A stretch of 64,000 nucleotides of DNA from NCBI GenBank assembly GCA_028280845.1, contig JANQKZ010000032.1, positions 5,390 through 69,389 of the forward strand, read 5' to 3'. The notes beneath the pieces are model-generated. The model was not told where the DNA came from and made no database searches. It was given only the letters and a program-made list of their open reading frames with translations. Positions 1,994 through 26,294 of this stretch are shown piece after piece; position 1 is the stretch's first letter, and every line of letters begins with the position of its first letter. Origin of the DNA: Opitutales bacterium. GTDB taxonomy: Bacteria > Verrucomicrobiota > Verrucomicrobiia > Opitutales > JABSRG01. The translations under genes and the position numbers were made by a program.

Positions 1994-2013
1994 TCCCTGG
2001 AATGGTCCAACGA

Positions 2014-2673
2014 TCAGGAATCGAACGAAACTTGGGGAGCTTCTTTCTGCGCGGCGTCTTCCACGACAAACAAGGCGGCCTCTGCAAAATTGAAAACCCC
2101 GGCTAAAAGAGAATCCGGAAAGGACTCCCGCTTAATATTATAGGCCGTGACCGCATCGTTGTAGGCCTGACGGGCAAACGCTATTTTATTTTCCGTAGAC
2201 GTCAGCTCCTCCGTCAGCTGCATCATATTCTGGTTGGCCTTCAAGTCGGGATAGGCTTCTGCGAGTGCAAAGAACCGGCCCATCATACCAGTCAGGGCAC
2301 CCTCCGCCCCCAGCAAGGCCTTCATCGCATTGGGATCCGCCGGATTGTTTGCCACCTGCTGCCCGGCAGAGGAGGCCTGGTTGCGAGCCTGGATCACGGC
2401 CTCCAGGGTGTCTCGTTCGTGTTTCATATACCCCTTTGCCGTTTCCACCAGATTGGGGATCAGGTCGTACCGTCGCTTCAGTTGAACATCAATCTGAGCA
2501 AAGGCATTTTTGAACCGATTTCGCAGTTGGACCAACCCGTTGTAAACGGAGACACCCCAGAAAAACACGACCAGGGCGGACAGGCCCATAACCCCGAAAA
2601 TCACCAGGAGGATAAGTGAAGCACCAGACATGGGCAGCAATTTGCCACAGAGGAAAAGACGAATCCAGCCCAA
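2014..2673 (-). CDS. lemA: LemA family protein
   Basis: 219-aa ORF with an N-terminal TM helix. It carries LemA-type sequence ...YNGLVQLRNRFKNAFAQIDVQLKRRYDLIPNLVETAKGYMKHERDTLEAV... The true start may be the internal Met near 2631. Confidence 0.9.
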   Translation of the reverse strand: MGWIRLFLCGKLLPMSGASLILLVIFGVMGLSALVVFFWGVSVYNGLVQLRNRFKNAFAQIDVQLKRRYDLIPNLVETAKGYMKHERDTLEAVIQARNQASSAGQQVANNPADPNAMKALLGAEGALTGMMGRFFALAEAYPDLKANQNMMQLTEELTSTENKIAFARQAYNDAVTAYNIKRESFPDSLLAGVFNFAEAALFVVEDAAQKEAPQVSFDS

Positions 2674-2820
2674 ATGGTGAGCCGGCAGATTTCTGCAAAT
2701 CCTAGAACCGAACCCCCAAGTCGGAAACGAAGCCGAATAATTGGAGCGCTTGGAAAAATTAGGACCTCCAATGACCGACTCCAGGCCCCGGACTTCTGAC
2801 TTCCGATTCCGGGTTTCCTA

Positions 2821-3573
2821 TCAGGCGTCCCGCCTGATGAACCGGCAGCTCTGCGCGACGCTCCACTGATACTTTCGCCGATGTTCCCTTATCAGGAAGG
2901 GCATGTTATCAGTTCCTGCCAGCTTGAAGTACGGATCCATCCGCCGCACGAGAACCTCGAGGCTTTCTCCGGTTTCCGGCCTCCCCCCCAGCCAACGTGC
3001 GGGCGGGGTAAATTCACCGAGCCAGGTGAAGGGGGTGTTGATCACGAGCTGTCCGCCGGGTTTAACCAAGTCGACGCACCGATCAAGAAAGGCTTCCGGC
3101 TGGGGCAGCCTGCAGATCAGGTTGGCGGCCAGCACGGCATCAAACTGCCCGAGGTCTTCACGCAAGGCCATGGCATCTCCCTGTTCAAAATGCACCCGGT
3201 TGGGGTCCAGGCCCTCCGGCCGGCTGGCCATTCCCTTTTCCGTCAGTTCCCCTTCAACGAGATACTCATACTCCAATTCGCCTTCCCGGGCGATATGGGC
3301 CGCCGCATCGACAAAAGCATGCGAATAGTCGATCCCAATAGCTTCTCCACAAGCGAAGGCAAACTCAAAGGTCGAGCGGCCTACCGCACAGCCAATATCG
3401 AGCGCCCGGGAATCGGAATGCAAGGCCGATAAGTCGAAGCAATCGACTACACAACGCACTGGATACTGCAGGGCAGAGACGGGGCCAAATGGCCAGGTCA
3501 GGTAGCTATCCGGTTTCCCATAATGGAAGAACAGGTATTCAGAAAGGAGTTTTTGCGTTTCGTACGGATTCAT
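2821..3573 (-). CDS. Class I SAM-dependent methyltransferase (resembles stand-alone OvoA C-terminal / 4-mercaptohistidine N1-methyltransferase-like family)
   Basis: 250-aa ORF with SAM motif I ALDIGCAVGRST and post-I IGIDYS. The N-terminus YETQKLLSEYLFFHYG is typical of that family as I recall it. The family assignment was not checked by search. Confidence 0.75.
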   Translation of the reverse strand: MNPYETQKLLSEYLFFHYGKPDSYLTWPFGPVSALQYPVRCVVDCFDLSALHSDSRALDIGCAVGRSTFEFAFACGEAIGIDYSHAFVDAAAHIAREGELEYEYLVEGELTEKGMASRPEGLDPNRVHFEQGDAMALREDLGQFDAVLAANLICRLPQPEAFLDRCVDLVKPGGQLVINTPFTWLGEFTPPARWLGGRPETGESLEVLVRRMDPYFKLAGTDNMPFLIREHRRKYQWSVAQSCRFIRRDA

Positions 3574-3622
3574 AGTGGGATGGTTTGGGGTCGAAAGATT
3601 ATGGTTCAGGTACTTGCCAGGG

Positions 3623-4249
3623 TTAATGTTTCAATGTTCGATTTTCCATTTCCTTCTCCGGTGGCGGCTTCCTCACCAGGGCGTAAAGGACGCTGACCGC
3701 CGCCTTCACCACGATTTCCCCAAAGATGATTTGCACCAGCAGAAGATTTGGAAATATCCCGGCGAATGCGATCAGGTTGAAGAGGATCGAATCGAGCGGG
3801 ATACTGATCGAGTTGGATCGCAGGACGCGAAAGATCCATCGTTGGTGTAGATATCGGTGGTAAACCTCGGTGTCCGTGGATTCCGCGATGATGATGGCGA
3901 GTGTACTCGCGAGGAACACACGCCAGGAACTCTCCGCCAGCATTTCCCAGCTCTCCGCCAACCATTCCCCAAAGGCTCCACCCAGCGTCCCACGGGCCAG
4001 TTCCCCCAGGGCCGCCCCTCCGCCGAATCGAATGGAAAGGAGCAGCAACAGACTCAGGAAGGCGGCCAGAAATATGATCTTGTAAACGAACGGCCGGCCA
4101 TGCCGGTGCATGCGGTCCCGCTGGGTAAAGGTCACACCAAAGATAATAGTGCCGACAGCCACTGCCCCAAACACCGGGAAGGGGATGAACATCGTGGCGG
4201 TGAACTGTGCGCACAGGACCGCAATTGTATAGATGACTGCAGCTCGCAT
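3623..4249 (-). CDS. VUT family (YhhQ-like) queuosine-precursor transporter
   Basis: 208-aa polytopic membrane ORF. Motifs ...GVTFTQRDRMH... and ...IIAESTDTEVYH... resemble the DUF165/YhhQ family. Confidence 0.7.
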   Translation of the reverse strand: MRAAVIYTIAVLCAQFTATMFIPFPVFGAVAVGTIIFGVTFTQRDRMHRHGRPFVYKIIFLAAFLSLLLLLSIRFGGGAALGELARGTLGGAFGEWLAESWEMLAESSWRVFLASTLAIIIAESTDTEVYHRYLHQRWIFRVLRSNSISIPLDSILFNLIAFAGIFPNLLLVQIIFGEIVVKAAVSVLYALVRKPPPEKEMENRTLKH

Positions 4250-4441
4250 ACGAAGGATGGCTTGTCTACTACCGCAGGAAGCCCTAAGAATGGAAAGTGA
4301 ATTCCACCGGCAGCCCTACCTATGCCTCATCTCTACCTCCTTGACCGGACAAGCGAAAAAAAGCCTGACCCAGAACCTTTGCTCAGCCTTGCTGGAAGTT
4401 TGGGCGATCCCGCCTATCAAGACTGACACCATCCACCCATC

Positions 4442-6283
4442 TTGCGCTTCATCATAAAACAGCTTGCCCACCTGTACGCGTGGTTCAAATCCTACAACCG
4501 ATTGGATTTGTTTCCGGTTCGCCACTTTGCCAAACGATACCAGAAAGACAAGGCCGCCGCGGATCTGCGTGCCGGGTTTAATGTCGCCCTGCTCGCCTTT
4601 CCTCAGGGGATGGCCTACGCCCTGATCGCAGGCATCCCTATCCAATACGGGATTTACGGATCCGCCGTGGCCACCATCGTCGGGACGATGTTTTCCGGGT
4701 CCCGCTTCATTACGCTTGGCCCAACGAATGCCACTTCGGTCCTCCTCTTGAGCGCCTTTGCCGCCTTGAACATTGGAGGAGAAGATAAACTCATGCTCCT
4801 TCCGCTCCTAATCGGACTGGTGGGCCTCTTTCTTGTGGTGGGGGCCTACCTGGGAGTGGCCAGCCTGATTCAATACATCTCGCGAACCGTGGTGACCGGG
4901 TATATCACCGCGGCGAGCTTCCTGATCATGGCCAACCAGGTGAAAACCGCCCTGGGGTTCAGCTTCTCCGATGGCGAGCAAGCCACAAACTTTTTCGAGG
5001 TCTCCTATCTGACTCTGTCTCACATCGGGGAAACCCACTGGCCCACCGTCGTCGCCAGTATCATTGCCGCAAGCATCTATCTCGTCCTCAGGAGATTCCT
5101 GCCTACCTTCCCGAACGTTGCCCTCACCCTCATTCTCATGGCATTCGTCACGATGGGCCTGAATGCCATCGAGGGATGGAATATTGTTATGTTGGCTGGC
5201 GTGGATGCCAGCTCCTGGAAAATCACGCCCCCTCCCCTCAATGTCGAAGCCGCCGCTGCCCTCAGCAGTTCCGCCATTGCCATCGCACTGTTGGCCGTGT
5301 TGGAAGGCTCGTCGATTGGGAAATCTCTGGCCGCCCGTGCCGGTTCACGGATCGATGCCAATCAGGAGATGTTTTCCACCGGTATGGCTAACATCGGATG
5401 CGCCTTCTTCTCCGGAATGCCCGCCTCCGGCTCCCTCACACGCTCAGCCCTGGCCATCGAGAGCGGAGCCAAAACTACCTTTACCAGTTTGTTTAGCGGG
5501 TTGATGGTCGCTGCTGGGGCCTTCGCCTTGGGACCCTTCATCGCCTACATCCCCCAAGCCGCCCTGTCTGTGGTCGTTATTTTCATCGCCCTCTCCCTGC
5601 TCAACCGCCATCAGATCCGCATCGTGACCACGGCCACCATGTCCGACCGGATTACTTTTTTTGTCACCTTTTTATCCGGCATGCTCTTGGCACTGGACAC
5701 GGCCATCTATATGGGTGCGGCAACCTCCATCGCCCTTTTCCTGCGCAAGGTCTCCAAGCCCGAAATGGTGGAATATGGCTTCGACAAAGAAGGCCAGCTG
5801 ACCGAACTTCAGGATAAGACAGAGCGGTCTGACCCTGAGGTTTCAATCGTCCATGTCGAGGGTGAACTCTTTTTTGGAGCAGCCGAGCTGTTTCGCGACC
5901 AGATGCGCCGGATCGGAGAGGATCCCAACCTGAAAATCATTATCCTGAAAGTACGCAACACTTACCGCCTTGATGCGTCTGCCATTATGGCGCTGGAAGA
6001 GCTGATCCGCTACATGAACTCGAAAGGCCGTTACATCATCATCAGTGAGGCCCGCAAAGATGCCATCCGAGTCATTAAGAACTCTGGCCTGCTCGACCTC
6101 CTCGAACGGCGTAACCTGATTCCTGACGTAACGGGCAATCCCACCCTCTCCACTGCTCGCGCCCTTCGCCGGGCTAAGGAACAACTCAAAGCGATGGGCG
6201 AACAGGACGCCAAAGTCACGATTTACGTGGACGACAAAAAGGTTGCTGACGAAGGTGAGATAAAAAAAGGCAAAGAAAAGTAG
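4442..6283 (+). CDS. SulP family anion (sulfate/bicarbonate) permease with C-terminal STAS domain
   Basis: 613-aa ORF with a TTG start. It has the SulP N-terminal signature DLRAGFNVALLAFPQGMAYALIAGIP and many TM segments. The C-terminal region SIVHVEGELFFGAAELFRDQM...LKVRNTYRLDASAIMALEEL is STAS-like. Confidence 0.9.
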   Translation: MRFIIKQLAHLYAWFKSYNRLDLFPVRHFAKRYQKDKAAADLRAGFNVALLAFPQGMAYALIAGIPIQYGIYGSAVATIVGTMFSGSRFITLGPTNATSVLLLSAFAALNIGGEDKLMLLPLLIGLVGLFLVVGAYLGVASLIQYISRTVVTGYITAASFLIMANQVKTALGFSFSDGEQATNFFEVSYLTLSHIGETHWPTVVASIIAASIYLVLRRFLPTFPNVALTLILMAFVTMGLNAIEGWNIVMLAGVDASSWKITPPPLNVEAAAALSSSAIAIALLAVLEGSSIGKSLAARAGSRIDANQEMFSTGMANIGCAFFSGMPASGSLTRSALAIESGAKTTFTSLFSGLMVAAGAFALGPFIAYIPQAALSVVVIFIALSLLNRHQIRIVTTATMSDRITFFVTFLSGMLLALDTAIYMGAATSIALFLRKVSKPEMVEYGFDKEGQLTELQDKTERSDPEVSIVHVEGELFFGAAELFRDQMRRIGEDPNLKIIILKVRNTYRLDASAIMALEELIRYMNSKGRYIIISEARKDAIRVIKNSGLLDLLERRNLIPDVTGNPTLSTARALRRAKEQLKAMGEQDAKVTIYVDDKKVADEGEIKKGKEK

Positions 6284-7013: not shown

Positions 7014-7292
7014 ATGAAATCCCTGGTTAGAATCATCGCGCGAGCGTTGGTGGGAATTACATTCTTTGCACTCTTCTGGATTCTTTATCAGGGAGAGCCG
7101 GATATCCTCGGAGTCCTGACCCTGGCCATCGGTTTTTTAAGTTTTTATGCCTGTTTGGAATTAGCCTTCTTCTACTACGATACCAAACATCTCCCCGCCC
7201 ATGGAAAGCAGTCCGGGGTGAGTGGGATGAATATTCTCCCAGGTGAAAGTAGGCACCACCAACACCAACGGCTACATCATCACCATCATTAA
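7014..7292 (+). CDS. Small two-TM membrane protein with natural His-rich C-terminal tail
   Basis: Taken from the ATG at 7014 (the ORF track starts at TTG 6978). Two hydrophobic helices are followed by ...GESRHHQHQRLHHHHH. Confidence 0.5.
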   Translation: MKSLVRIIARALVGITFFALFWILYQGEPDILGVLTLAIGFLSFYACLELAFFYYDTKHLPAHGKQSGVSGMNILPGESRHHQHQRLHHHHH

Positions 7293-7319
7293 GCCCCCGC
7301 TGTGGAGGTGGGGGAGAGG

Positions 7320-8741
7320 TTAGGGGCTCCTAAACTGATATAGATCTTCGGATACTTTGAGTAGGGAATCAAAAACCGCACCATGTCGTAAACCAAGTGG
7401 GTTGATGAGCCCGGGCTTCTGAGTTCCATGAGGACTGGTACTCCACGAATCAATTACCCCGCAAATGTGCCACCCCACAAAACTGGGGTGAGCGAACGCC
7501 AGCTCCGCATAAGCATACATCCACGCACCCCGTTCTGCCTGATCCCGAGCCTGAGGATTTTGCGGCCTGGGCATGCGTGGATCCCCAAAGGCGCCAAAGC
7601 CGCCATCCCCATTCATGATCGGCAGTTGAGACACCCGCGCGATCCGGTCCTGCACGGATTGTTGATAGGCATCTCTGCCATAAAACTGGAAGAGGATGAC
7701 ATCCACATAATCTTTGGCTACCTCCACCATCAGGTCCAGATCGGTCGGATGGAGATTGGCATTCAATTTGTCCCCCAGGAATAGATGGTTGGGGTTGACC
7801 GCCCGGAACGCCGCCTCTGCCGTGCCATAGTACTGATGCAAGCAAAGCGCGTTGAAGGCGTTATTATCTTCAATCTCGGTTTCATTCTCGAAATCCGTAA
7901 ACTCCCTCCAGTCCACCGCCTCCAGAAGTTCCTCCCAGCTCTCAAATCCGGTTCCATAGGTCTGGTTAAACGCTTCAATGGATGAATAACGCCCCCGCAT
8001 CGTCTCGACATATTTTTGCTTTCCTGGGGCGGTTGCCGGAAGATTCCGTAGCACCATGGCCCAGGTAGGAGTCTTCCGTCCCTTAAACACAGCCTTGGCC
8101 CACCGCTCAGTCAGGACCGGGATATCGGCCATGGCGAACCCGATGATCATGGGGTCATCGATATAGGGCGCCACCTGCTCCTGGGCCGCCTGATCACAGA
8201 TCTGCCTGAACTCCGGAGCAAATACATCCACAAAGTCTTCTGGCCCTGCCCGCATATGCATGGAAAATCGAACCGGAATATACTGCTTGATGTAGGGCAG
8301 AAAAGGTGGCCGATCCAGTAAGATTCGCTCCTCGTTATGATAGCCCATCGAATTGGCCCCGATCCTATGAACCAACTCTTTGGCGTGTTCGTAAAAACTC
8401 TGGTTCCAAGCAGGGGTCCAGGCCCTCCCACCAAATTCGGTTTCCCAATGCACTTTGTTATACTCCCTCACCCACAAGCCGGAATGAAAATGGTTCAAAC
8501 CAAAGGACAAGAAAGCATGGCTGTCCGGCGTCACCAGCCACCATTGCCCTTCATGATGGATCGTTCGAAAAAAACCATGGGGTTCGAGATCGAATGCCTT
8601 CCCCTTCCAGCCTCCGTAGGCATCAAATCCAGGTTGACCTGCTTCCTCTTTGGGCAACACCTCGCCCAAACTAAAACAGCCAGCCAAACCAAAGGCGCAC
8701 AGAAACTTAAACCCATACAAGTAGCGGAGACACAAAACCAT
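7320..8741 (-). CDS. Lipoprotein, putative TIM-barrel glycoside-hydrolase-like enzyme (family not resolved)
   Basis: Long ORF with a probable start at Met 8741, giving a signal peptide plus lipobox FGLAGC. The Trp/Tyr/Asp-rich sequence has a GH42/GH50-like flavour. The functional call is weak. Confidence 0.55.
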   Translation of the reverse strand: MVLCLRYLYGFKFLCAFGLAGCFSLGEVLPKEEAGQPGFDAYGGWKGKAFDLEPHGFFRTIHHEGQWWLVTPDSHAFLSFGLNHFHSGLWVREYNKVHWETEFGGRAWTPAWNQSFYEHAKELVHRIGANSMGYHNEERILLDRPPFLPYIKQYIPVRFSMHMRAGPEDFVDVFAPEFRQICDQAAQEQVAPYIDDPMIIGFAMADIPVLTERWAKAVFKGRKTPTWAMVLRNLPATAPGKQKYVETMRGRYSSIEAFNQTYGTGFESWEELLEAVDWREFTDFENETEIEDNNAFNALCLHQYYGTAEAAFRAVNPNHLFLGDKLNANLHPTDLDLMVEVAKDYVDVILFQFYGRDAYQQSVQDRIARVSQLPIMNGDGGFGAFGDPRMPRPQNPQARDQAERGAWMYAYAELAFAHPSFVGWHICGVIDSWSTSPHGTQKPGLINPLGLRHGAVFDSLLKVSEDLYQFRSP

Positions 8742-17740: not shown

Positions 17741-18691
17741 ATGGAAAACGTTATCATTTTAGGCACCGGCTGCGCCGGTCTCACCGCAGCCATTTACACG
17801 GCCCGCGCCAATTTGAATCCCCTCGTGATCGAAGGGAGCCAACCGGGCGGCCAGCTCACCACCACCAGCGAAGTGGAAAACTTTCCCGGCTTCCCCGAAG
17901 GGGTCGACGGCTTTTCTCTGATGGACAATCTGCGCAAGCAGGCTGCCCGGTTTGGGACCCGCTTCACCAACGATTTGATTGAGTCGGCCGACCTGTCCGG
18001 CCCGGTCAAGCAACTGGTAGGCAGCTCCGGCAATACGTACGAGGCCCAGAGCGTCATCATCGCTACCGGGGCGCGGCCCCGGCTCCTCGGCATCCCTGGA
18101 GAAAAGGAGATGTTCGGGGGCAAGGGGGTGACCACCTGCGCCACCTGCGATGGTGCTTTCTACCGTGACATGCCTGTGGTCGTCATTGGCGGGGGGGATA
18201 GCGCCGCCGAGGAAGCCCTCTTCCTGACCCGCTTTACCTCCAAGGTCACCTTGGTGCACCGCCGCGACGAACTGCGGGCCTCCAAAATCATGGCCGACCG
18301 GGTCTTCGAAAACGAGAAGATCGAAATGGCCTGGAACTCCGTGCCCGAAGCGGTACTGGCCGATGAAAGCGGACTGGCCCGCGCCCTTCAGGTGAAAAAT
18401 GTGAAGTCCGGCGATGTGTCTGAAATTGAAGCCAAGGGGGTCTTTGTCGCAATCGGCCATGTCCCGAATACCAGCTTCCTCGAAGGGGCACTCCCCACCG
18501 ATGAAAATGGTTACCTCGTGCCCGCCGATAACAGCCAGGTCATCACGGAAATCCCCGGGGTCTATGTCGCCGGCGATGTGTCCGACCATAAGTTCCGCCA
18601 AGCCATCACCGCGGCCGGCATGGGCTGCCAGGCGGCCATCGAAGTCGAACGCTGGCTGGCAGAACAGCCTCAACCCGTTGAAGTAGGGTAG
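17741..18691 (+). CDS. trxB: Thioredoxin-disulfide reductase
   Basis: GTGCAG FAD motif, redox-active TCATCDG and [15 protein letters not shown] motif. Confidence 0.95.
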
Positions 18692-21754: not shown

Positions 21755-22207
21755 ATGACACGTCTCATCACCCTGATCGCCGCGCTTCTACTAGGAAGCG
21801 TTGGCGCTCAGGCTAAATCCCTAACCAACACCAACTGGCGCGGCATCGCCCTCGACGGATACGATGCGGTCGCCTTTCATACCGAGGGAGCAACCATTAA
21901 GGGCTCCAGCGACTACACCACCACTTACGAGGGAGCCAAATACCGATTCAGCTCCGCAAAAAACCAGAAGCGCTTCGAGGCGAATCCCAACAAGTATGTA
22001 CCCGCCTACGGCGGATACTGCGCCTGGGCGGTTTCTGTGAAAAACGATACCGCTCCGGTGGACATTGATACCTGGCAGATCATCGATGGCCGCCTGATCC
22101 TGAACTACAATGCCGCCATCCAGGCAGAGTTCGATGCCGATCAGGCCAACCACATCCGCCAGGCAGACAAGAACTGGCCCGATTTATTGGAAAGAAAAGG
22201 CAAATAA
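21755..22207 (+). CDS. YHS domain-containing protein (Cys form), secreted
   Basis: Signal peptide MTRLITLIAALLLGSVGAQA, then ALDGYDAVAFH...YRFSSAKNQKRFEANPNKYVPAYGGYCAWAV. Confidence 0.8.
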   Translation: MTRLITLIAALLLGSVGAQAKSLTNTNWRGIALDGYDAVAFHTEGATIKGSSDYTTTYEGAKYRFSSAKNQKRFEANPNKYVPAYGGYCAWAVSVKNDTAPVDIDTWQIIDGRLILNYNAAIQAEFDADQANHIRQADKNWPDLLERKGK

Positions 22208-22250
22208 CAGGAGCAACAGGTAACCTTACACTAGCAGTGAGGTAACAGAT

Positions 22251-22287
22251 AAGCCGACACCCCCAAGGGTGTCGGCTTTTCGGTTTT
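22251..22287 (+). terminator. Rho-independent terminator
   Basis: 12-bp stem AAGCCGACACCC / GGGTGTCGGCTT with a 4-nt loop, followed by TTCGGTTTT. Confidence 0.7.
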
Positions 22288-22715
22288 AAAGATAAACAGG
22301 CTGCCCGCCCTGAGCACCATCATAGCTCGGCAAGGGGATTGCCAGAAGCCTGAAACCCATTTTTGGTGCGTCTTGGTTTTTTTGAGGTCTTTTAATGCAG
22401 TTCAATGCCACCCATTCCTGTCGCGGCTTGCTCCTCCATTGCTCTCATCCGCTCCATCCTCGTTTTGAACTACGAAAGCCACGAAAGAGCACGAAAACAT
22501 TAACTCTCTTCTCTCCGCGCATTCCGTAGTCGATCCCCTTCCCTTCCTTAAATTTTATCTTCAAAAGTCCTAACTAAGCCTGCGGCGACTGGCGGCTCGC
22601 CTGTCTCGGCGCAATTCGATGAGCGAAATCGGAAGCAGACAGGATGACCAGACTACGCTGAAGCTTCGTCCGGCAGGCTGGCTGGGCAGCGCTGGCTCCG
22701 GCTACTTGTTAGGAT

Positions 22716-22955
22716 CTATTCTTCGAAGTCTTCAATCCATATAGGGATGATATTGGTATAATCTACATAGGTTAATTCGTCCACCTCAAGGGCGCATCGA
22801 GGAACAAATCCGCAATCAAATACCGCAAAAACTATTGCATCGAAAAATCCTTTGTATTTGTCGTCAAACGGGCAATTTTTAAAGCCCTTTCATGGTTTCG
22901 AAAGATACATTTTTCCGTCTCATAGTCGGCCCGCCTTTTCTCTGAGTTCCTTCAT
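22716..22955 (-). pseudogene. Decayed third cistron of the islet operon (frameshifted or truncated)
   Basis: An ATG at 22955-22953 overlaps the TGA of the 96-aa gene (ATGA) but opens only MKELREKAGRL*. Another frame with no start codon reads ...FKNCPFDDKYKGFFDAIVFAVFDCGFVPRCALEVDELTYVDYTNIIPIWIEDFEE*. Confidence 0.4.
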
Positions 22956-23242
22956 TTAAACCTCCCACTCGCAATAGCCGCTTGCACGGCCTCCCTCGGC
23001 AAATCAATAGGAGGAACATTTAAGACGGCAGTATACTGTATTTCGCCACCTTCGTCCTCATATCCCCATGCAAAGACTTTGGATGCTTTCGAGTGTTCTG
23101 TAAGATCAAATACCTCTACATCGCCCCGCCAAACCTCCTTGCCGTCCATTATTTCTACGATATGAGCAGTGTTTTCATGAGCAGCACTACACCCATACAT
23201 CGCGAGAATAGCCTCAGTTAAGTTGCTAATGTAATCGCTCAC
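22952..23242 (-). CDS. Hypothetical 96-aa protein (small conserved-looking alpha/beta protein, function unknown)
   Basis: The GTG start overlaps the upstream stop (GTGA). The sequence ...VWRGDVEVFDLTEHSKASKVFAWGYE...TAVLNVPPIDLPREAVQAAIAS resembles a widespread uncharacterised small-protein family that I cannot name. Confidence 0.75.
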   Translation of the reverse strand: MSDYISNLTEAILAMYGCSAAHENTAHIVEIMDGKEVWRGDVEVFDLTEHSKASKVFAWGYEDEGGEIQYTAVLNVPPIDLPREAVQAAIASGRFK

Positions 23243-24207
23243 TCCGGCGTATCAGTCCCAGCCTTTCGCTTCCAGCGTCGCATTAAGCCTTGGAGCCAAT
23301 ACTCCAAATCCTCTACGCTATCTGCGGAAAGACTCGACGGCCTACTTATGATCACGGGGCCTTCGTCTAGAGTTATTTGCTCTTTGGCGCATCCATCAAT
23401 AGTGGCTTCACTTTCCTTATTAAAATAAGGATTTGCTGGCGGCCTAGCTGCTGCTGATTGCGCTGCCTGAACAGTTGATGGTTCCATAACTGATAATTCG
23501 CTCATAGGTAATCCGGTTGCTGTTCCTTCGACAAAGACCCAATTACCATCATTGGAAACATCAATAACTTTTCGTGGGGTAGAAAATTGATAAGCTCCTT
23601 GGGATGTCCATTGGACATGAGTTCCAATAGTAATCTCTGTCGCTTCTTCTTCATCTATGTCATCGGAATTGTCAACTTCATTGTCTAAATTATCAGAAAT
23701 ACCAGTTTTCGCGTCAAGCTTAGAGTATTTAATTGTTTCTTTGTATGTTTTTATTACTGAATCGGCAGCAGCAGATTGAAACTCTTTATCATACGTGAGA
23801 AAGCCTTTTATTACGTCATCGGCAGGCAGGTGCACGCCGTATTTTTCCCTCAAGAGTTTAAATATCTTAGGGCTTATGGCAGCAGACTCCACTGCAGTTG
23901 CACGCCTATTGTCACTTGAAGGTAACTCGAATATTTGGAGCGCACGATCCGATAGCCTGATTTTGCGATCATCCTTTGTGCCAGATTCAGTAATTAGGCC
24001 ATACTGCGATAATGCAGCTACAGCCCGCAGAGACGGCCCCGTCCGCTTGCTATAGCCCATCTTAACGATAGCGGCGTCAAGGTGAATTTCGTGTCGATTC
24101 GCCTCATTATAGAGAATGCGGGCTTTTTCAATCGCATCCCCTAGGCTCATGGACGGGTAAGCAGGGCTGCGCCCGCGCGGCTTAGTTGGTGTTTTCTTGC
24201 CTTCCAT
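23239..24207 (-). CDS. Hypothetical 322-aa multidomain protein (basic N-tail + wHTH-like + acidic linker + SH3-like beta domain + basic C-terminal helix)
   Basis: The ORF is AT-rich. The N-terminus is KPRGRSPAYPSMSLGDAIEKARILY...GPSLRAVAALSQYGLITESG...IRLSDRALQIF. The acidic run is DNLDNEVDNSDDIDEEEATE. A beta-rich segment reads ITIGTHVQWTSQGAYQFSTPRKVIDVSNDGNWVFVEG. The C-terminus is EDLEYWLQGLMRRWKRKAG. Confidence 0.8.
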   Translation of the reverse strand: MEGKKTPTKPRGRSPAYPSMSLGDAIEKARILYNEANRHEIHLDAAIVKMGYSKRTGPSLRAVAALSQYGLITESGTKDDRKIRLSDRALQIFELPSSDNRRATAVESAAISPKIFKLLREKYGVHLPADDVIKGFLTYDKEFQSAAADSVIKTYKETIKYSKLDAKTGISDNLDNEVDNSDDIDEEEATEITIGTHVQWTSQGAYQFSTPRKVIDVSNDGNWVFVEGTATGLPMSELSVMEPSTVQAAQSAAARPPANPYFNKESEATIDGCAKEQITLDEGPVIISRPSSLSADSVEDLEYWLQGLMRRWKRKAGTDTPE

Positions 24208-24240
24208 GACATATGGATCTGATATATATCATAATATGTC
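24208..24240. promoter_or_regulatory. Nested palindromes abutting the start codon of the 322-aa gene
   Basis: GACATAT (24208-14) pairs with ATATGTC (24234-40). They enclose the perfect 12-bp palindrome TGATATATATCA (24220-31). Confidence 0.4.
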
Positions 24241-24456
24241 AAACAAAATGTCGAATTACGGGGTTTAAAAGTTGACTCCTAACTGAGAATCGTTCAGCTT
24301 CTAAATTATTATGCATCATACCAGAAGAGCAAAAAGCGCGAAACGATGGCATGGGAGCCGCCCGTACGCGCGCAACGACACAAATAGCAACGCCCCGTTG
24401 GGCTAGAATCTTGGTAGAGTCACTCAACGGGGCGCTAGGCTCCACACTTAATAGGT

Positions 24457-24528
24457 GCGGTTGTAGGTTAACGGTAAACCGTCATTCTTCCCAAATTGGA
24501 GATGTGGGTTCGAGTCCCACCAGCCGCA
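24457..24528 (+). tRNA. tRNA-like element (anticodon UCC, Gly, if folded canonically); possibly a pseudogene
   Basis: Hand-folded. The acceptor is GCGGTTG/CAGCCGC with one G-U pair. U8 is present. The D arm is GGTT-AACGGTA-AACC and the T arm is GTGGG-TTCGAGT-CCCAC (canonical). The discriminator is A and no CCA is encoded. The anticodon stem TCATT/AATTG has only 3 Watson-Crick pairs plus one G-U and one C-U mismatch. The loop is CTTCCCA, with pyrimidine C at position 37. Confidence 0.5.
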
Positions 24529-24570
24529 GCTAATAAAACTCAATCTCACTATTATGAAAAAAGTACTACC

Positions 24571-24756
24571 TTATTTTATGTAATCGCGCAAGAGTTTTTC
24601 TATCAGGGGTGAAGTTTTTCCCTGCCACTTGATAATTGCCACATCTAGTACTTCTGAATCTACCGAAACAGATATTTTGCGCTTGGTCTGCCCACTAGGA
24701 CGCCCTGCTCCAGGGCGCGCACCGCCTTTTCTTGAATTATTTCCTACTTTTTTCAT
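24571..24756 (-). CDS. Small basic protein, ribbon-helix-helix-like (hypothetical)
   Basis: 61 aa. A Gly/Arg/Lys-rich N-tail is followed by KISVSVDSEVLDVAI...LIEKLLRDYIK, a beta-strand plus helices pattern typical of CopG/Arc-like proteins. Confidence 0.5.
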   Translation of the reverse strand: MKKVGNNSRKGGARPGAGRPSGQTKRKISVSVDSEVLDVAIIKWQGKTSPLIEKLLRDYIK

Positions 24757-24807
24757 TGACTATATATTTGATTAAAGTAGTATTTTATTCATAAAACAAG
24801 AGGAAAT

Positions 24808-25127
24808 ATGGCAAACAAACTTCCAATTGAGAAAAAAGCCCTTGTGGTTCCCATGCTTGCCGAGAGTTGTTCAATTCGCTCTATAGAACGCGCAACATCC
24901 ATCCACAGGGATACCCATGCACTTAGAAGTTCGCATAGGAAAGCTGTGCTAAGGTCTTGGACGAAAAAATGCGCAATCTCACATGCAACAATATCCAAGT
25001 TGACGAGGCATGGGGCTTTATCGGAGCAAAGCAAAAGACGGTGAACGCAAACAAGCTTAACTCAGACTACGGCGATGTGTGGGTTTGGGTTGCACTGGAT
25101 GCTGATACAAAAGAGCCCCTCGCCTGA
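24808..25127 (+). pseudogene. IS1-family-like transposase remnant (N-terminal part only, at least 2 frameshifts, 3'-truncated)
   Basis: Frame 1 reads MANKLPIEKKALVVPMLAESCSIRSIERATSIHRDT. It shifts to ..MHLEVRIG.., then shifts again to ESCAKVLDEKMRNLTCNNIQVDEAWGFIGAKQKTV...GDVWVWVALDADTKEPLA*. The reading ends where high-GC native sequence resumes. Confidence 0.65.
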
Positions 25128-25154
25128 ATAGTGTTGAGGAATACTGGCTGCGCC

Positions 25155-26294
25155 CTACAGCGTTTCGCTCTCTGTGACCGGAAAGGGATCTACGGCCGGA
25201 AGCGGCGGGACCGGGGGAACGGGAGCTACCGGGGGCGCGGGCACAACAATCATGTCCTGCCCACTGGGCGCCACCATGGTCATACCCGAGTCGGGGCTGG
25301 GGACGATGACTTCGATTTTCGGCGCCTCAAAAGTGCCATCCTCATTAATTTGAATGCCCTCCACTTTCTCCATCCGGGCGCGAACGGGACCGGGAATCAG
25401 CTCCATGTCCTCGGCGGTATTGATGGGGCCGGTGAAAAGGAGCGTCCCTTCATTGTCCATGGCCGTCAGGGTCTTGTTGCCTCTCGCCACATTCAGGATC
25501 AGGGTGCCCGCATCATCCTTGAATACGATATTGGCGTCCTTCGTGGCCGACGAATAGGCATGCATGGTATGAGGAGCTTCCGCGGAATCCGAGGTGTAAG
25601 CGTGAATCTTCATTTTCAGGGCCTGTTTGGCCGTTTCAAAATGCTCTTTCCACTCCTCGCTTTCTTTCATTTCTTGAGTGGCTTCTTCAATGGCCTGCAT
25701 GGCCTGGGCATAGCCTCGCTCGATTTCGGCCCGGATCTCCGGGTTGTCTTTCAGTTCCTCCAGCGCTTCTTCTGCAATCACCATGGCCTCCGAGGCGGCT
25801 TCCATGGCCGTGGCGATCGCTTCCTGGGTTTCCATCTCAAACATGAAGTCTACATCCGGAGACCAATCAAAGGTGTTCTCCTTCTTCTTGTGCTGATCGA
25901 GCCGGGAACCCATGTTGCCGTTCAGGACGACCGCCTCCCCCTTTCTCAGCACCGTCATCGTGATGGCGTCTCCCGGGCTGCTTCGCCGCAGCAAGGCGGA
26001 AAATTGCGCCTGGGCCAGGATCAACTGGTCATTGAAGTGGGTCAGGATGTCATAGCGTTCCAGACCGGCCTTGTCGGCGGCACTGTCAGGAACCACGTAA
26101 TTGACAGATAGCCCCACATCCTCATCCAGGTCCAAGTGGTGCCGGAGTTGCTTGCTGACGGAGCCGACCTCCACGCCCAGGAAGGGCTTCTGGGCCAGGG
26201 CCTCGTCATCGCTTTCATATTCATCTGCCCACAGGGAACCGGCCAGCAAGACCAGTAGCAGGGGCAGAACCATTAATTTAAATACGGATTTCAT
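25155..26294 (-). CDS. Secreted PDZ domain-containing protein
   Basis: Signal peptide MKSVFKLMVLPLLLVLLAGSLWA. The PDZ-like region is FLGVEVGSV...GLSVNYVVPDSAADKAGLERYDILTHFNDQLI...GDAITMTVLRKGE. The C-terminus is helical Glu-rich and then Pro-rich. Confidence 0.8.
   Translation of the reverse strand: MKSVFKLMVLPLLLVLLAGSLWADEYESDDEALAQKPFLGVEVGSVSKQLRHHLDLDEDVGLSVNYVVPDSAADKAGLERYDILTHFNDQLILAQAQFSALLRRSSPGDAITMTVLRKGEAVVLNGNMGSRLDQHKKKENTFDWSPDVDFMFEMETQEAIATAMEAASEAMVIAEEALEELKDNPEIRAEIERGYAQAMQAIEEATQEMKESEEWKEHFETAKQALKMKIHAYTSDSAEAPHTMHAYSSATKDANIVFKDDAGTLILNVARGNKTLTAMDNEGTLLFTGPINTAEDMELIPGPVRARMEKVEGIQINEDGTFEAPKIEVIVPSPDSGMTMVAPSGQDMIVVPAPPVAPVPPVPPLPAVDPFPVTESETL

What the first reader, a model, noticed from the sequence alone, without database searches (positions are those of the whole stretch)
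22952..24207. Translationally coupled gene pair of unknown function in an AT-rich islet (322-aa wHTH-like multidomain protein + 96-aa partner)
The two genes overlap by GTGA. They are clearly more AT-rich than the surrounding chromosome, and I can assign neither to a named family. The 322-aa protein reads as five parts:
- A basic N-terminal tail.
- A winged-helix-like domain (SLGDAIEKARILY...LRAVAALSQYGLITESG...IRLSDRALQIF).
- A strongly acidic linker (DNLDNEVDNSDDIDEEEATE).
- A small SH3/Tudor-like beta domain (ITIGTHVQWTSQGAYQFSTPRKVIDVSNDGNWVFVEG).
- A basic amphipathic C-terminal helix (EDLEYWLQGLMRRWKRK).

The partner is a compact 96-aa protein (..VWRGDVEVFDLTEHSKASKVFAWGY..VLNVPPIDLPREAVQAAI). 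The combination of a DNA-binder with a tightly coupled small protein and a decayed downstream gene, on a mobile-looking fragment next to a tRNA-like element and IS debris, is the usual context of addiction, defence or phage-regulatory modules. This domain arrangement is not one I know as described.
Basis: partly seen in the sequence, partly recalled or inferred. Interest (0 to 1): 0.7.

Follow-up and report, generated by a model that had tools for sequence, protein, structure and literature searches.

The report
Accessory genes of a decayed transposon
The two overlapping genes are real, conserved and unnamed, but they are not a free-standing module: they are the surviving accessory genes of a broken copy of a widespread IS1-family transposon that also carries a small DNA-binding protein gene and a tRNA-like gene.

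Summary
A 322-aa gene and a 96-aa gene overlap by GTGA on the minus strand, in a 45% GC islet of a 54% GC window. Neither protein matches Pfam, NCBIfam, PHROGs, PADLOC or any solved structure.

The context changes the reading. In 61 of 82 distinct loci the 96-aa family follows an IS1-family DDE transposase, usually with overlapping stop and start. It follows a 322-aa relative in only four distinct loci. The 322-aa family is large, with about 8,300 clusters at 50% identity. It usually stands alone, pointing away from the same kind of transposase, often with a tRNA-like gene in between.

In relatives, all these parts lie between conserved inverted repeats (GGTAGTGTCCTAATTTG). Of 49 such elements, 39 have perfect 8-9 bp target-site duplications. 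The two closest full-length elements have both.

The window copy has lost both repeats and two thirds of its transposase. It keeps the pair, a 61-aa ribbon-helix-helix-like gene and the tRNA-like gene.

The function of both proteins is still unknown. My best guess is control or maintenance of the element. Addiction or defence cargo is the main rival.

The parts
23239..24207 (-). Gene for the 322-aa protein. Its parts are an N-terminal RSPxYP motif, a winged helix with a helical bundle, an acidic disordered linker, a small SH3-like beta domain, a PPANP motif and a basic C-terminal helix.
   Evidence: The ORF is. The family alignment A4 has invariant R13, S14, P15, P18, G70 and L71. A profile search finds 8,319 cluster representatives at E <= 1e-3. 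There are no Pfam, NCBIfam, PHROG or PADLOC hits.
22952..23242 (-). Gene for the 96-aa protein, from a GTG start that overlaps the upstream stop in GTGA. In most relatives this family is the second ORF behind an IS1-family transposase.
   Evidence: The ORF and sequence are. The family alignment A3 has invariant G40, E43, F45, W59, PP and AVQAAI. AlphaFold2 gives pLDDT 91.7 and an alpha-beta4-alpha fold. Foldseek finds nothing in the PDB or BFVD.
24456..24530 (+). tRNA-like gene, pointing away from the 322-aa gene. ARAGORN calls it tRNA-Gly(UCC). Its anticodon stem is weak and has a C-U mismatch.
   Evidence: ARAGORN result. The Rfam tRNA model scores 57.5 bits. A gene of the same kind and position occurs in L004, L157, L001 and many other loci, inside inverted-repeat-bounded elements.
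24571..24756 (-). Gene for a 61-aa ribbon-helix-helix-like protein with an N-terminal GAGRP arm. It points away from the transposase remnant and lies on the same strand as the pair.
   Evidence: The ORF is. Homologs hold the same position in L004 (63 aa) and L157 (61 aa). There are weak BrnA_antitoxin, NikA-like and TacA1 hits. GRP-arm small ORFs accompany at least 37 of about 80 transposase-96 units. dN/dS against L157 is 0.09.
24808..25127 (+). Remnant of an IS1-family DDE transposase. Only residues 1-36 (24808-24915) and 46-103 (24939-25112) of about 277 survive, in two reading frames. The catalytic core and the adjoining inverted repeat are gone.
   Evidence: Shown by the alignment to intact transposases, tblastn with the L157 transposase and hmmsearch. 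Intact relatives pass the Pfam DDE_Tnp_IS1 cut-off. NCBI names relatives 'IS1 family transposase'.
24744..24780 (.). Operator-like palindrome at the junction between the transposase remnant and the ribbon-helix-helix gene. Its core is CTACTTT ... AAAGTAG.
   Evidence: I read this by eye; the repeat finder did not report it for the window at its length threshold. The corresponding 22-25 nt palindromes are reported for L157 and L004.
22719..22951 (-). Decayed stretch downstream of the 96-aa gene. It holds a short ORF that starts in an ATGA overlap (MKELREKAGRL*) and a 57-codon fragment (..CPFDDKYKGFFDAIVFAVFDCGFVPRCALE..). Neither could be assigned.
   Evidence: Shown by the translations. There is no Pfam hit. 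Matches to ribbon-helix-helix genes elsewhere are only insignificant. No inverted-repeat-like site is found here even with 6 mismatches allowed.

Best explanation
The pair is what remains functional of a degraded IS1-family transposon.

Shown:
- In intact relatives one element carries the transposase, a 61-63-aa ribbon-helix-helix protein, a tRNA-like gene, the winged-helix protein and the 96-aa protein.
- That element is bounded by the inverted repeat GGTAGTGTCCTAATTTG and flanked by an 8-9 bp target-site duplication.
- The window copy has lost both repeats and about two thirds of its transposase, so it can no longer move.
- Its pair, its ribbon-helix-helix gene and its tRNA-like gene are intact, and the three protein genes have evolved under purifying selection.

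Inferred:
- The 322-aa protein is a sequence-specific DNA-binding protein. It would bind through its winged helix and its AT-hook-like RGRSP arm. Its SH3-like domain and C-terminal helix would bind a partner or mediate self-association.
- The 96-aa protein is the element family's own small second ORF. It is made in fixed proportion to whichever DNA-binding protein precedes it, usually the transposase and here the winged-helix protein.
- Together with the ribbon-helix-helix repressor, the two would form the element's control and maintenance circuit, setting transposase expression or activity.
- They are not essential for the cut-and-join chemistry, because sister elements that lack one or the other still show target-site duplications.
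For: Element structure:
- The inverted repeat matches in 100 of the 167 sequences searched (166 loci plus the window).
- There are 49 repeat-bounded elements, median 3.1 kb, and 39 have perfect 8-9 bp target-site duplications.
- L157 (2531..5752, duplication GGATGCTG) and L004 (1228..4309, duplication GTGTGTTG) have the window's gene order inside the repeats.
- L001 (6252..8925) is a minimal element: repeat, 96-aa homolog, transposase, tRNA-like gene, winged-helix gene, repeat.
- L165 (2926..5105, duplication CGCCGCGT) holds only the transposase and a winged-helix gene.

Position of the two families:
- The 96-aa family lies directly behind the transposase in 61 of 82 distinct loci.
- The winged-helix family points away from the transposase in at least 16 loci.

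Transposase family: relatives pass the Pfam DDE_Tnp_IS1 cut-off, and NCBI names them 'IS1 family transposase'.

Decay of the window copy: there is no repeat match anywhere in the window, and the transposase is truncated.

Selection: dN/dS against L157 is 0.04-0.11 for the pair and the ribbon-helix-helix gene.

DNA-binding fold: supported.
Against: - No experiment or homology links either protein to transposition control.
- Elements without the 96-aa gene (L165, L105) and elements without the winged-helix gene (most of L008-L087) still have target-site duplications. Neither protein is therefore required, and either could simply be popular cargo.
- Some winged-helix genes lie far from any transposase (L161, L163, L098, L102).
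- Twelve distinct loci with a 96-aa gene have no transposase in the stretch held.
- The pair has survived the loss of its transposase, which fits a transposition-independent role at least as well.
- The loci were collected by searching for the two proteins themselves, so the co-occurrence counts are biased by that anchoring.
Confidence: 0.5

Rival explanations
1. The genes are addiction or defence cargo. The 96-aa protein would be a toxin or effector. The ribbon-helix-helix protein, or the winged-helix protein, would be its antitoxin or sensor-regulator. The transposon would merely carry the module, which persists after the transposase decays because losing it is costly or because it protects the host.
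For: - The ribbon-helix-helix gene is of the kind used by type II antitoxins, with weak BrnA, TacA1, NikA-like and CcdA hits. It accompanies at least 37 of about 80 loci with a 96-aa gene.
- Sister elements carry bona fide toxin-antitoxin or defence-type cargo: PIN (L003), SocA/Panacea (L012), DUF2283/DUF4258 (L004, L158) and XRE/ImmA-like proteins (L167).
- The pair, the ribbon-helix-helix gene and the tRNA-like gene are intact in the window, while the transposase and the repeats are gone.
- One winged-helix gene lies beside a Type ISP restriction enzyme.
Against: - PADLOC, Pfam and the structure searches give no hit for either protein.
- About half of the 96-aa loci show no ribbon-helix-helix gene by my crude motif screen.
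- The 96-aa gene has a fixed position and one copy per element, translationally coupled to the transposase. That looks like a core gene of the element rather than interchangeable cargo.
- Two of its near-invariant residues are not kept throughout: H16 is Y in the window protein and C18 is V in P0013.
Confidence: 0.28
2. The 322-aa protein is an RNA-binding partner of the tRNA-like transcript. Its winged helix and Sm/SH3-like domain would bind the RNA encoded just upstream on the other strand. The resulting ribonucleoprotein would modulate the transposase or tap the host's tRNA machinery.
For: - A tRNA-like gene lies 200-270 nt upstream of the winged-helix gene, on the opposite strand, in about 17 of about 28 loci with enough flank.
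- These genes lie inside repeat-bounded elements.
- Many are non-canonical. Their T-loop reads GTCCGAA, most have the anticodon UAC whatever the host phylum, and several fall below the Rfam gathering score.
- Their stems covary.
- The Foldseek list for the 322-aa model includes RNA-binding winged helices (ROQ, SelB) among its weak hits.
Against: - About 40% of winged-helix loci show no tRNA-like gene.
- tRNA-like genes also occur in elements that lack this protein (L012, L023, L033, L069, L071, L084).
- The Foldseek matches are all weak and mostly to DNA-binding winged helices.
- The target-site duplications show no obvious shared sequence, so nothing points to RNA-guided targeting.
- Covariation is expected in any set of tRNAs.
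Confidence: 0.12
3. The pair is a domesticated host regulator. After the element died, the winged-helix protein and its small partner would have been kept as an ordinary transcription factor pair controlling host genes.
For: - The pair is intact in a dead element.
- The window and L157 share a homologous host gene a few kb away (window 17745-18667; L157 8391-9310; 68.7% identity). This is compatible with an old insertion inherited vertically.
- L107 and L118 both carry the transposase, tRNA-like and winged-helix cluster, and share an 83%-identical stretch downstream that reads as recA.
Against: - L157, the closest relative, is an intact transposon with repeats and a target-site duplication.
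- The family's abundance and patchy spread across phyla fit a mobile-element gene.
- No host target is evident.
Confidence: 0.06

Closest known systems
IS1 family insertion sequences (IS1 and its single-ORF relatives), and the related IS1595 family, some of whose members carry passenger genes ('transporter IS'). The IS1595 point is from my own knowledge of ISfinder and Siguier et al. 2009, not tested here.
   Same: - The DDE transposase of intact relatives passes the Pfam DDE_Tnp_IS1 cut-off.
- NCBI names relatives 'IS1 family transposase'.
- The terminal inverted repeats begin with GGT.
- Target-site duplications are 8-9 bp.
- The transposase has an N-terminal helix-turn-helix, and some members have an InsA-like zinc ribbon.
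   Different: - The elements are 1-6.5 kb (median 3.1 kb), far larger than the 768 bp of IS1.
- The transposase is one uninterrupted ORF, not InsA and InsB joined by a frameshift.
- The elements carry recurrent extra genes that, to my knowledge, are not described for IS1: the 96-aa ORF, a ribbon-helix-helix gene, the winged-helix protein and a tRNA-like gene.
- The window copy itself lacks repeats and a complete transposase.
Type II toxin-antitoxin modules with a ribbon-helix-helix antitoxin (BrnTA, ParDE, CcdAB, TacAT)
   Same: - The genes are small and tightly coupled, and sit on a mobile element.
- One is a ribbon-helix-helix protein with an N-terminal basic arm.
- An operator-like palindrome lies at its promoter.
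- The genes persist after the carrier has decayed.
   Different: - The 96-aa protein matches no known toxin fold or family.
- The ribbon-helix-helix gene is often not adjacent to the 96-aa gene, and is missing from about half of the loci.
- The usual partner of the 96-aa gene is a transposase.
WYL-domain regulators such as DriD, BrxR and CapW
   Same: The domain order is alike: an N-terminal winged helix, a helical linker, a small SH3/Sm-like beta domain and a C-terminal association region. DriD chains appear among the weak Foldseek hits (E about 0.02).
   Different: - There is no Pfam WYL hit.
- No Foldseek match reaches E <= 1e-3.
- An acidic disordered linker separates the two halves of the protein.
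- The genomic context is a transposon, not a defence or SOS operon.
DUF5343 (PF17278) winged-helix proteins
   Same: - The N-terminal pattern is alike (P-Y ... L ... G-L-I/L-x-x-x-G).
- DUF5343 genes sit inside sister elements of the same transposon family (L024, L018).
   Different: - The 322-aa protein does not hit PF17278.
- The profile-profile comparison is not significant (E = 0.22).
- DUF5343 proteins lack the VGDxVQW beta domain.

Membership tests
IS1-family transposon (the locus as a whole) | DDE transposase with the IS1-type catalytic domain | tested here: inconclusive
   Intact relatives score 27-37 bits on PF03400, above its 24.1-bit cut-off. NCBI-45%-identical plasmid genes 'IS1 family transposase'. 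The window keeps only residues 1-36 and 46-103 of about 277, so its catalytic part is missing.
IS1-family transposon (the locus as a whole) | Terminal inverted repeats | tested here: not met
   GGTAGTGTCCTAATTTG has no match in the 64-kb window at up to 3 mismatches, and none in 22000-25400 at up to 6. It is present in pairs around the relatives L157, L004, L001, L164 and L165.
IS1-family transposon (the locus as a whole) | Target-site duplication of 8-9 bp | tested here: not met
   This cannot be located in the window because the ends are gone. It is met in 39 of 49 repeat-bounded relatives, including L157 and L004.
IS1-family transposon (the locus as a whole) | Transposase made by a -1 frameshift between insA and insB | tested here: not met
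   Relatives encode one uninterrupted ORF of 271-321 aa. The frame change in the window remnant is accompanied by truncation, so it is decay.
Type II toxin-antitoxin module | Toxin of a recognised family or fold | tested here: not met
   The 96-aa and 322-aa proteins have no Pfam, NCBIfam or PADLOC hit. Foldseek's best E-value is 0.4 against the PDB and 0.03 against BFVD.
Type II toxin-antitoxin module | The two genes co-occur as an adjacent pair across genomes | tested here: not met
   The 322-aa and 96-aa genes are adjacent in only 4 distinct loci. No 96-aa homolog is found in 64 metagenomic loci with relatives of the 322-aa protein. In 61 of 82 distinct loci the 96-aa gene follows a transposase.
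Type II toxin-antitoxin module | Toxicity that the partner neutralises | not testable with these tools
   This needs expression experiments.
Known anti-phage defence systems (PADLOC-DB v2) | A protein matching a defence-system model | tested here: not met
   None of the 322-aa, 96-aa and 61-aa proteins matches any family, even at E <= 1.
WYL-domain regulators (DriD, BrxR, CapW) | A WYL domain recognisable by sequence or structure | tested here: not met
   There is no PF13280 hit. Foldseek matches to DriD have E of 0.017-0.07 and TM-scores of about 0.18.
DUF5343 (PF17278) | A match to the family model | tested here: not met
   There is no hit at E <= 1. hhalign against two DUF5343 members gives E = 0.22.
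Winged-helix DNA-binding fold (the N-terminal domain only) | Helix-turn-helix followed by a beta hairpin wing | tested here: met
   AlphaFold2 predicts H22-36, H43-49, H57-68, E72-75 and E82-85 at pLDDT of about 90 or more. The profile matches the Csa3 winged helix at E = 0.029. Foldseek matches F-93, ArsR, MarR and BlaI proteins with probabilities of 0.77-0.99 but E above 1e-3.
tRNA (the neighbouring gene at 24456-24530) | Cloverleaf scoring above the Rfam gathering score | tested here: met
   RF00005 scores 57.5 bits against a 29-bit cut-off, and ARAGORN calls Gly(UCC). Whether it is charged and decodes cannot be tested here. Its anticodon stem has a C-U mismatch and four A-U or G-U pairs (read).

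The most novel reading that the evidence does not exclude
This lineage of IS1-family transposons uses a ribonucleoprotein. The winged-helix/SH3-like protein would bind the element's own tRNA-like transcript. With the 96-aa protein, this complex would license or restrain the DDE transposase, for example by sensing the state of the host's tRNA-processing or translation machinery. That would be a transposon control mechanism with no described counterpart.
Probability: 0.1. Interest if true: 0.85.

Novelty: new variant of a known kind. Interest (0 to 1): 0.5.

Why it matters
The two proteins belong to unnamed families. About 8,300 clusters at 50% identity match the profile of the large protein. 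The small one is found in at least 100 places in species-representative genomes of Verrucomicrobiota, Acidobacteriota, Myxococcota and other phyla.

Placing both inside one inverted-repeat-bounded IS1-family transposon turns two 'hypothetical proteins' into a defined and testable system. The system has a conserved 17-bp end sequence, 8-9 bp target-site duplications, a small set of recurrent accessory genes and an embedded tRNA-like gene.

For genome annotation, the result explains many AT-rich islets next to apparent tRNA genes, which could otherwise be mistaken for integrase-type genomic islands.

For mobile-element biology, it raises two concrete questions. What does a transposase-coupled 96-aa protein do? 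Why does a DDE transposon carry a non-canonical tRNA-like gene?

The window copy itself is a dead remnant and is ordinary in that sense.

Tried and rejected
- The first homolog search returned only 12 relatives of the 322-aa protein. I first read this as rarity. The exhaustive profile search found 8,319 clusters, so the first result came from the word filter.
- I considered a classical tRNA-linked genomic island, integrated at the 3' end of the tRNA by a site-specific recombinase. I rejected it for three reasons: the pair lies on the 5' side of the tRNA-like gene; that gene lies inside the inverted repeats and target-site duplication in relatives; and no tyrosine or serine recombinase is present.
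- I considered insertion targeted next to host tRNA genes. I rejected it for the same reason, and because many of the tRNA-like genes are non-canonical.
- Comparing L026 with L028 first suggested direct rather than inverted ends. The true left repeat lies further upstream, at 3251 in L026 and 4016 in L028.
- I looked for a link to DUF5343 by profile-profile comparison. It was not significant.
- I read the broken ORF after the 96-aa gene as the remnant of a ribbon-helix-helix gene. The similarity is too weak to claim (E = 2.7).
- The 57-codon fragment at 22719-22889 has no Pfam hit and no relative in any fetched locus.
- Literature searches found nothing relevant. The queries covered IS1 family plus tRNA or accessory genes, IS1595 passenger genes, DUF5343, tRNA-like RNA with DDE transposases, and the repeat sequence itself.
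- The plasmid collection has no homolog of the 96-aa protein and only one weak, partial match to the 322-aa protein.
- The L165/L166 duplication is 4,056 bp long and extends beyond the repeats. It is therefore not clean evidence that the 2.2-kb element moved recently. The repeats and the target-site duplication around that element are.
Full report
**1. The observation**

A 322-aa ORF runs 23239..24207 on the minus strand from an ATG. A 96-aa ORF runs 22952..23242 on the minus strand from a GTG. The sequence ...ccggaGTGAgcg... shows the TGA stop of the first gene inside the same four bases as the GTG start of the second.

G+C is 0.449 over 22745-25130, 0.461 and 0.467 for the two genes, and 0.544 for the whole window. 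Neither protein has a hit at threshold in Pfam, PHROGs, PADLOC or NCBIfam.

Both are real genes. The 96-aa family is conserved from its first residues, which supports the GTG start; one source had called only a 65-aa version. Against the closest relative, dN/dS is 0.11 for the large protein and 0.04 for the small one, with saturated dS.

**2. The proteins**

AlphaFold2, run on a 12-sequence alignment, models the 322-aa protein as follows:
- Residues 10-160 have pLDDT of about 90 and form a winged helix (H22-36, H43-49, H57-68, E72-75, E82-85) followed by a helical bundle.
- Residues 165-189, the acidic linker, are disordered.
- Residues 197-240 form a small beta domain.
- Residues 298-316 form a C-terminal helix.

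A profile of the family weakly matches the winged helix of Csa3 (E = 0.029). Foldseek returns only generic winged-helix proteins and, weakly, the WYL regulator DriD. Nothing reaches E <= 1e-3. The beta domain gives sub-threshold SH3_6 hits in 7 of 20 members.

The invariant residues include an N-terminal R-S-P-x-x-P motif. The C-terminal ~50-75 residues are swapped between close relatives: the window differs there from P0002, which is otherwise 71% identical.

The 96-aa protein is modelled with high confidence (pLDDT 91.7) as helix, four strands, helix. It has no structural neighbour in the PDB or BFVD.

**3. Family sizes**

The word-filtered search found 12 relatives of the large protein and 43 of the small one. 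The exhaustive profile search changed the picture for the large protein. It found 8,319 clusters at 50% identity at E <= 1e-3 and 2,675 at E <= 1e-30. The best 150 are nearly all full-length proteins of about 300-340 aa. All named members are 'hypothetical protein' and have no Pfam domain.

The small protein matched 101 places in species-representative genomes; the 80 loci kept are mostly from Verrucomicrobiota and Acidobacteriota.

**4. Who sits next to whom**

I translated all ORFs of the fetched loci and scored them with HMMs of the two families, the transposase and the small ribbon-helix-helix protein.

Of 82 distinct loci with a 96-aa homolog:
- 61 have an IS1-like DDE transposase directly upstream on the same strand, usually with overlapping stop and start.
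- 7 have the transposase further away on the same strand.
- 12 have no transposase in the stretch held.
- 2 (the window and L004) have a homolog of the 322-aa protein upstream.

Looking up the closest relatives of the window's small protein (66-72% identity) added L157 and L158/L159, which share the window's arrangement.

Conversely, none of 64 metagenomic loci found with the large protein contains a 96-aa homolog.

In those loci the large gene typically points away from an IS1-like transposase 350-470 nt upstream. This is so in L092, L094, L096, L101, L104, L105, L107, L114, L115, L118 and L120, and also in L164 and L165. A tRNA or tRNA-like gene often lies in between, on the transposase strand.

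A small ribbon-helix-helix gene with a GRP arm accompanies at least 37 of about 80 transposase-96 units. It either overlaps the end of the 96-aa gene or points away from the transposase.

**5. One transposon**

L165 showed a 25-bp inverted repeat around the transposase and the winged-helix gene, with an 8-bp duplication (CGCCGCGT) outside it. The same repeat flanks L001.

I then searched everything for GGTAGTGTCCTAATTTG, allowing up to 3 mismatches. It matched in 100 of the 167 sequences searched (166 loci plus the window), mostly as a plus/minus pair. Forty-nine repeat-bounded elements could be defined. Their median length is 3,146 bp (range 961-6,529 bp). Thirty-nine have a perfect target-site duplication, 31 of 8 bp and 8 of 9 bp.

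The elements that matter most here are:
- L157 (2531..5752, duplication GGATGCTG): transposase, ribbon-helix-helix gene, tRNA-like gene, winged-helix gene, 96-aa gene and one more ORF.
- L004 (1228..4309, duplication GTGTGTTG): the same order, plus a DUF2283/DUF4258 pair.
- L001 (6252..8925): only the 96-aa homolog, the transposase, a tRNA-like gene and the winged-helix gene.

The transposases pass the Pfam DDE_Tnp_IS1 cut-off. Plasmid relatives 41-45% identical are annotated 'IS1 family transposase'. In those plasmids, other genes occupy the position pointing away from the transposase: an XRE/ImmA-like protein and a 318-aa hypothetical protein that looks protease-like by eye.

Other cargo seen inside the repeats includes PIN, SocA/Panacea and DUF5343.

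**6. The window copy**

The window has the L157/L004 gene order, in window orientation:
- transposase remnant, 24808-25127 (+)
- 61-aa ribbon-helix-helix gene, 24571-24756 (-)
- tRNA-like gene, 24456-24530 (+)
- 322-aa gene (-)
- 96-aa gene (-)

Only residues 1-36 and 46-103 of the transposase survive, in two reading frames. The repeat is absent from the whole window. It is also absent from 22000-25400 even with six mismatches allowed.

DNA similarity to L157 is 72% over 23479-25102 and 73% over the 96-aa gene. It breaks in the C-terminal ~75 codons of the large gene.

The stretch after the 96-aa gene holds only broken ORFs, which I could not assign. The element is therefore dead as a transposon, while four of its parts are intact.

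**7. The tRNA-like gene**

The window gene scores 57.5 bits on the Rfam tRNA model, but its anticodon stem is weak and has a mismatch. Across elements these genes share odd features:
- Many have the T-loop GTCCGAA.
- Most have the anticodon UAC, in both Verrucomicrobiota and Acidobacteriota.
- Rfam scores are low, and several fall below the gathering score.

The stems covary, but that is expected of any set of tRNAs. A covariance model built from them finds such a gene upstream of about 17 of about 28 winged-helix genes with enough flank. It also finds one about 260-340 nt upstream of the transposase in about 11 of 84 canonical loci. I did not resolve what it does.

**8. Interpretation**

That the pair belongs to a decayed IS1-family transposon is well supported. 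What the two proteins do is not shown.

I favour a role in the element's own control or maintenance. Four observations point that way:
- Each element has one 96-aa gene, in a fixed position and translationally coupled to a DNA-binding protein.
- The winged-helix gene holds a fixed position at the other end of the element.
- Minimal elements such as L001 carry nothing else.
- A ribbon-helix-helix repressor gene and an operator-like palindrome lie at the transposase promoter (by eye).

Against this, neither gene is needed for insertion in sister elements, and the pair has outlived its transposase. That idea lacks any positive evidence from PADLOC, Pfam or structure.

The ribonucleoprotein reading is the most novel one that the data do not exclude.

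**9. Limits**

- The loci were gathered by searching for the two proteins, so the co-occurrence counts are anchored on them.
- ORF calling was mechanical.
- The ribbon-helix-helix count rests on a simple motif.
- dS is saturated.
- No complex prediction could be run.

Noticed in passing
window 24456-24530; L001 7655-7730; L004 2332-2406; L157 3640-3713; L115 2456-2529; L120 5637-5711; L023 4829-4902; L033 4827-4901 and others: A tRNA-like gene is carried inside many of these inverted-repeat-bounded transposons. Most copies have the anticodon UAC whatever the host phylum. Many have a non-canonical T-loop (GTCCGAA) and low Rfam tRNA scores. ARAGORN miscalls several as 'tRNA-Stop(tta)' or '???'. 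In an annotated genome they would pass for ordinary tRNA genes or for island integration sites.
   Followed up: partly
L001 6252/8925; L003 5507/8684; L004 1228/4309; L157 2531/5752; L164 1968/5429; L165 2926/5105; L026 3251/6996 and about 40 more: The 17-bp terminal inverted repeat GGTAGTGTCCTAATTTG is almost unchanged across Verrucomicrobiota, Acidobacteriota, Myxococcota and other phyla. It bounds IS1-family elements of 1-6.5 kb with 8-9 bp target-site duplications and varied cargo (PIN, SocA/Panacea, DUF2283/DUF4258, DUF5343, XRE/ImmA-like). A full-text search for the repeat found no paper.
   Followed up: partly
window 22952-23242: The exact 96-aa protein is not in the protein collection. 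One source holds only a 65-aa version that starts at the internal Met32 (P0014). Conservation of residues 1-31 across the family shows that the GTG start is the right one.
   Followed up: yes
L128-L151 (for example L136 604-1035; L141 3325-3777): About 25 metagenomic loci encode small proteins, mostly of 130-180 aa, that share only the VGDxVQW beta domain of the 322-aa family. The domain therefore also exists outside the full-length protein. Many of these loci are 85-97% identical to each other.
   Followed up: no
window 23243-23479 compared with L157 4683-4950; P0002, P0005 and the L004 249-aa protein: The C-terminal ~50-75 residues of the winged-helix family come in at least two interchangeable versions: '...LSxDSVEDLEYWLxGxxxRAxRKAG' and '...DFxFLxDALNLYKRKIV'. 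The version can differ between proteins that are otherwise 71% identical.
   Followed up: partly
L107 about 7185-7943 and L118 3877-4616: In two related high-GC metagenomic contigs, the cluster of transposase, tRNA-like gene and winged-helix gene lies upstream of a shared stretch, 83% identical between the two, that reads as recA. The cluster itself is only 67% identical. This suggests long vertical residence at one chromosomal site.
   Followed up: no
L165 and L166 (one 2.69-Mb contig), locus coordinates 1697-5752 in both: A 4,056-bp segment is present twice at 100% identity in one genome. It holds an IS1595-family transposase gene next to the 2.2-kb IS1-like element with its winged-helix gene. 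The duplicated unit is larger than the repeat-bounded element, so this may be a composite or nested mobile unit.
   Followed up: partly
window 22244-22285: A strong hairpin followed by a T run (12 pairs, 8 of them G-C) lies just after the gene that ends at 22207. It looks like that gene's terminator. It lies a few hundred bases beyond the left end of the low-GC stretch (about 22745).
   Followed up: no
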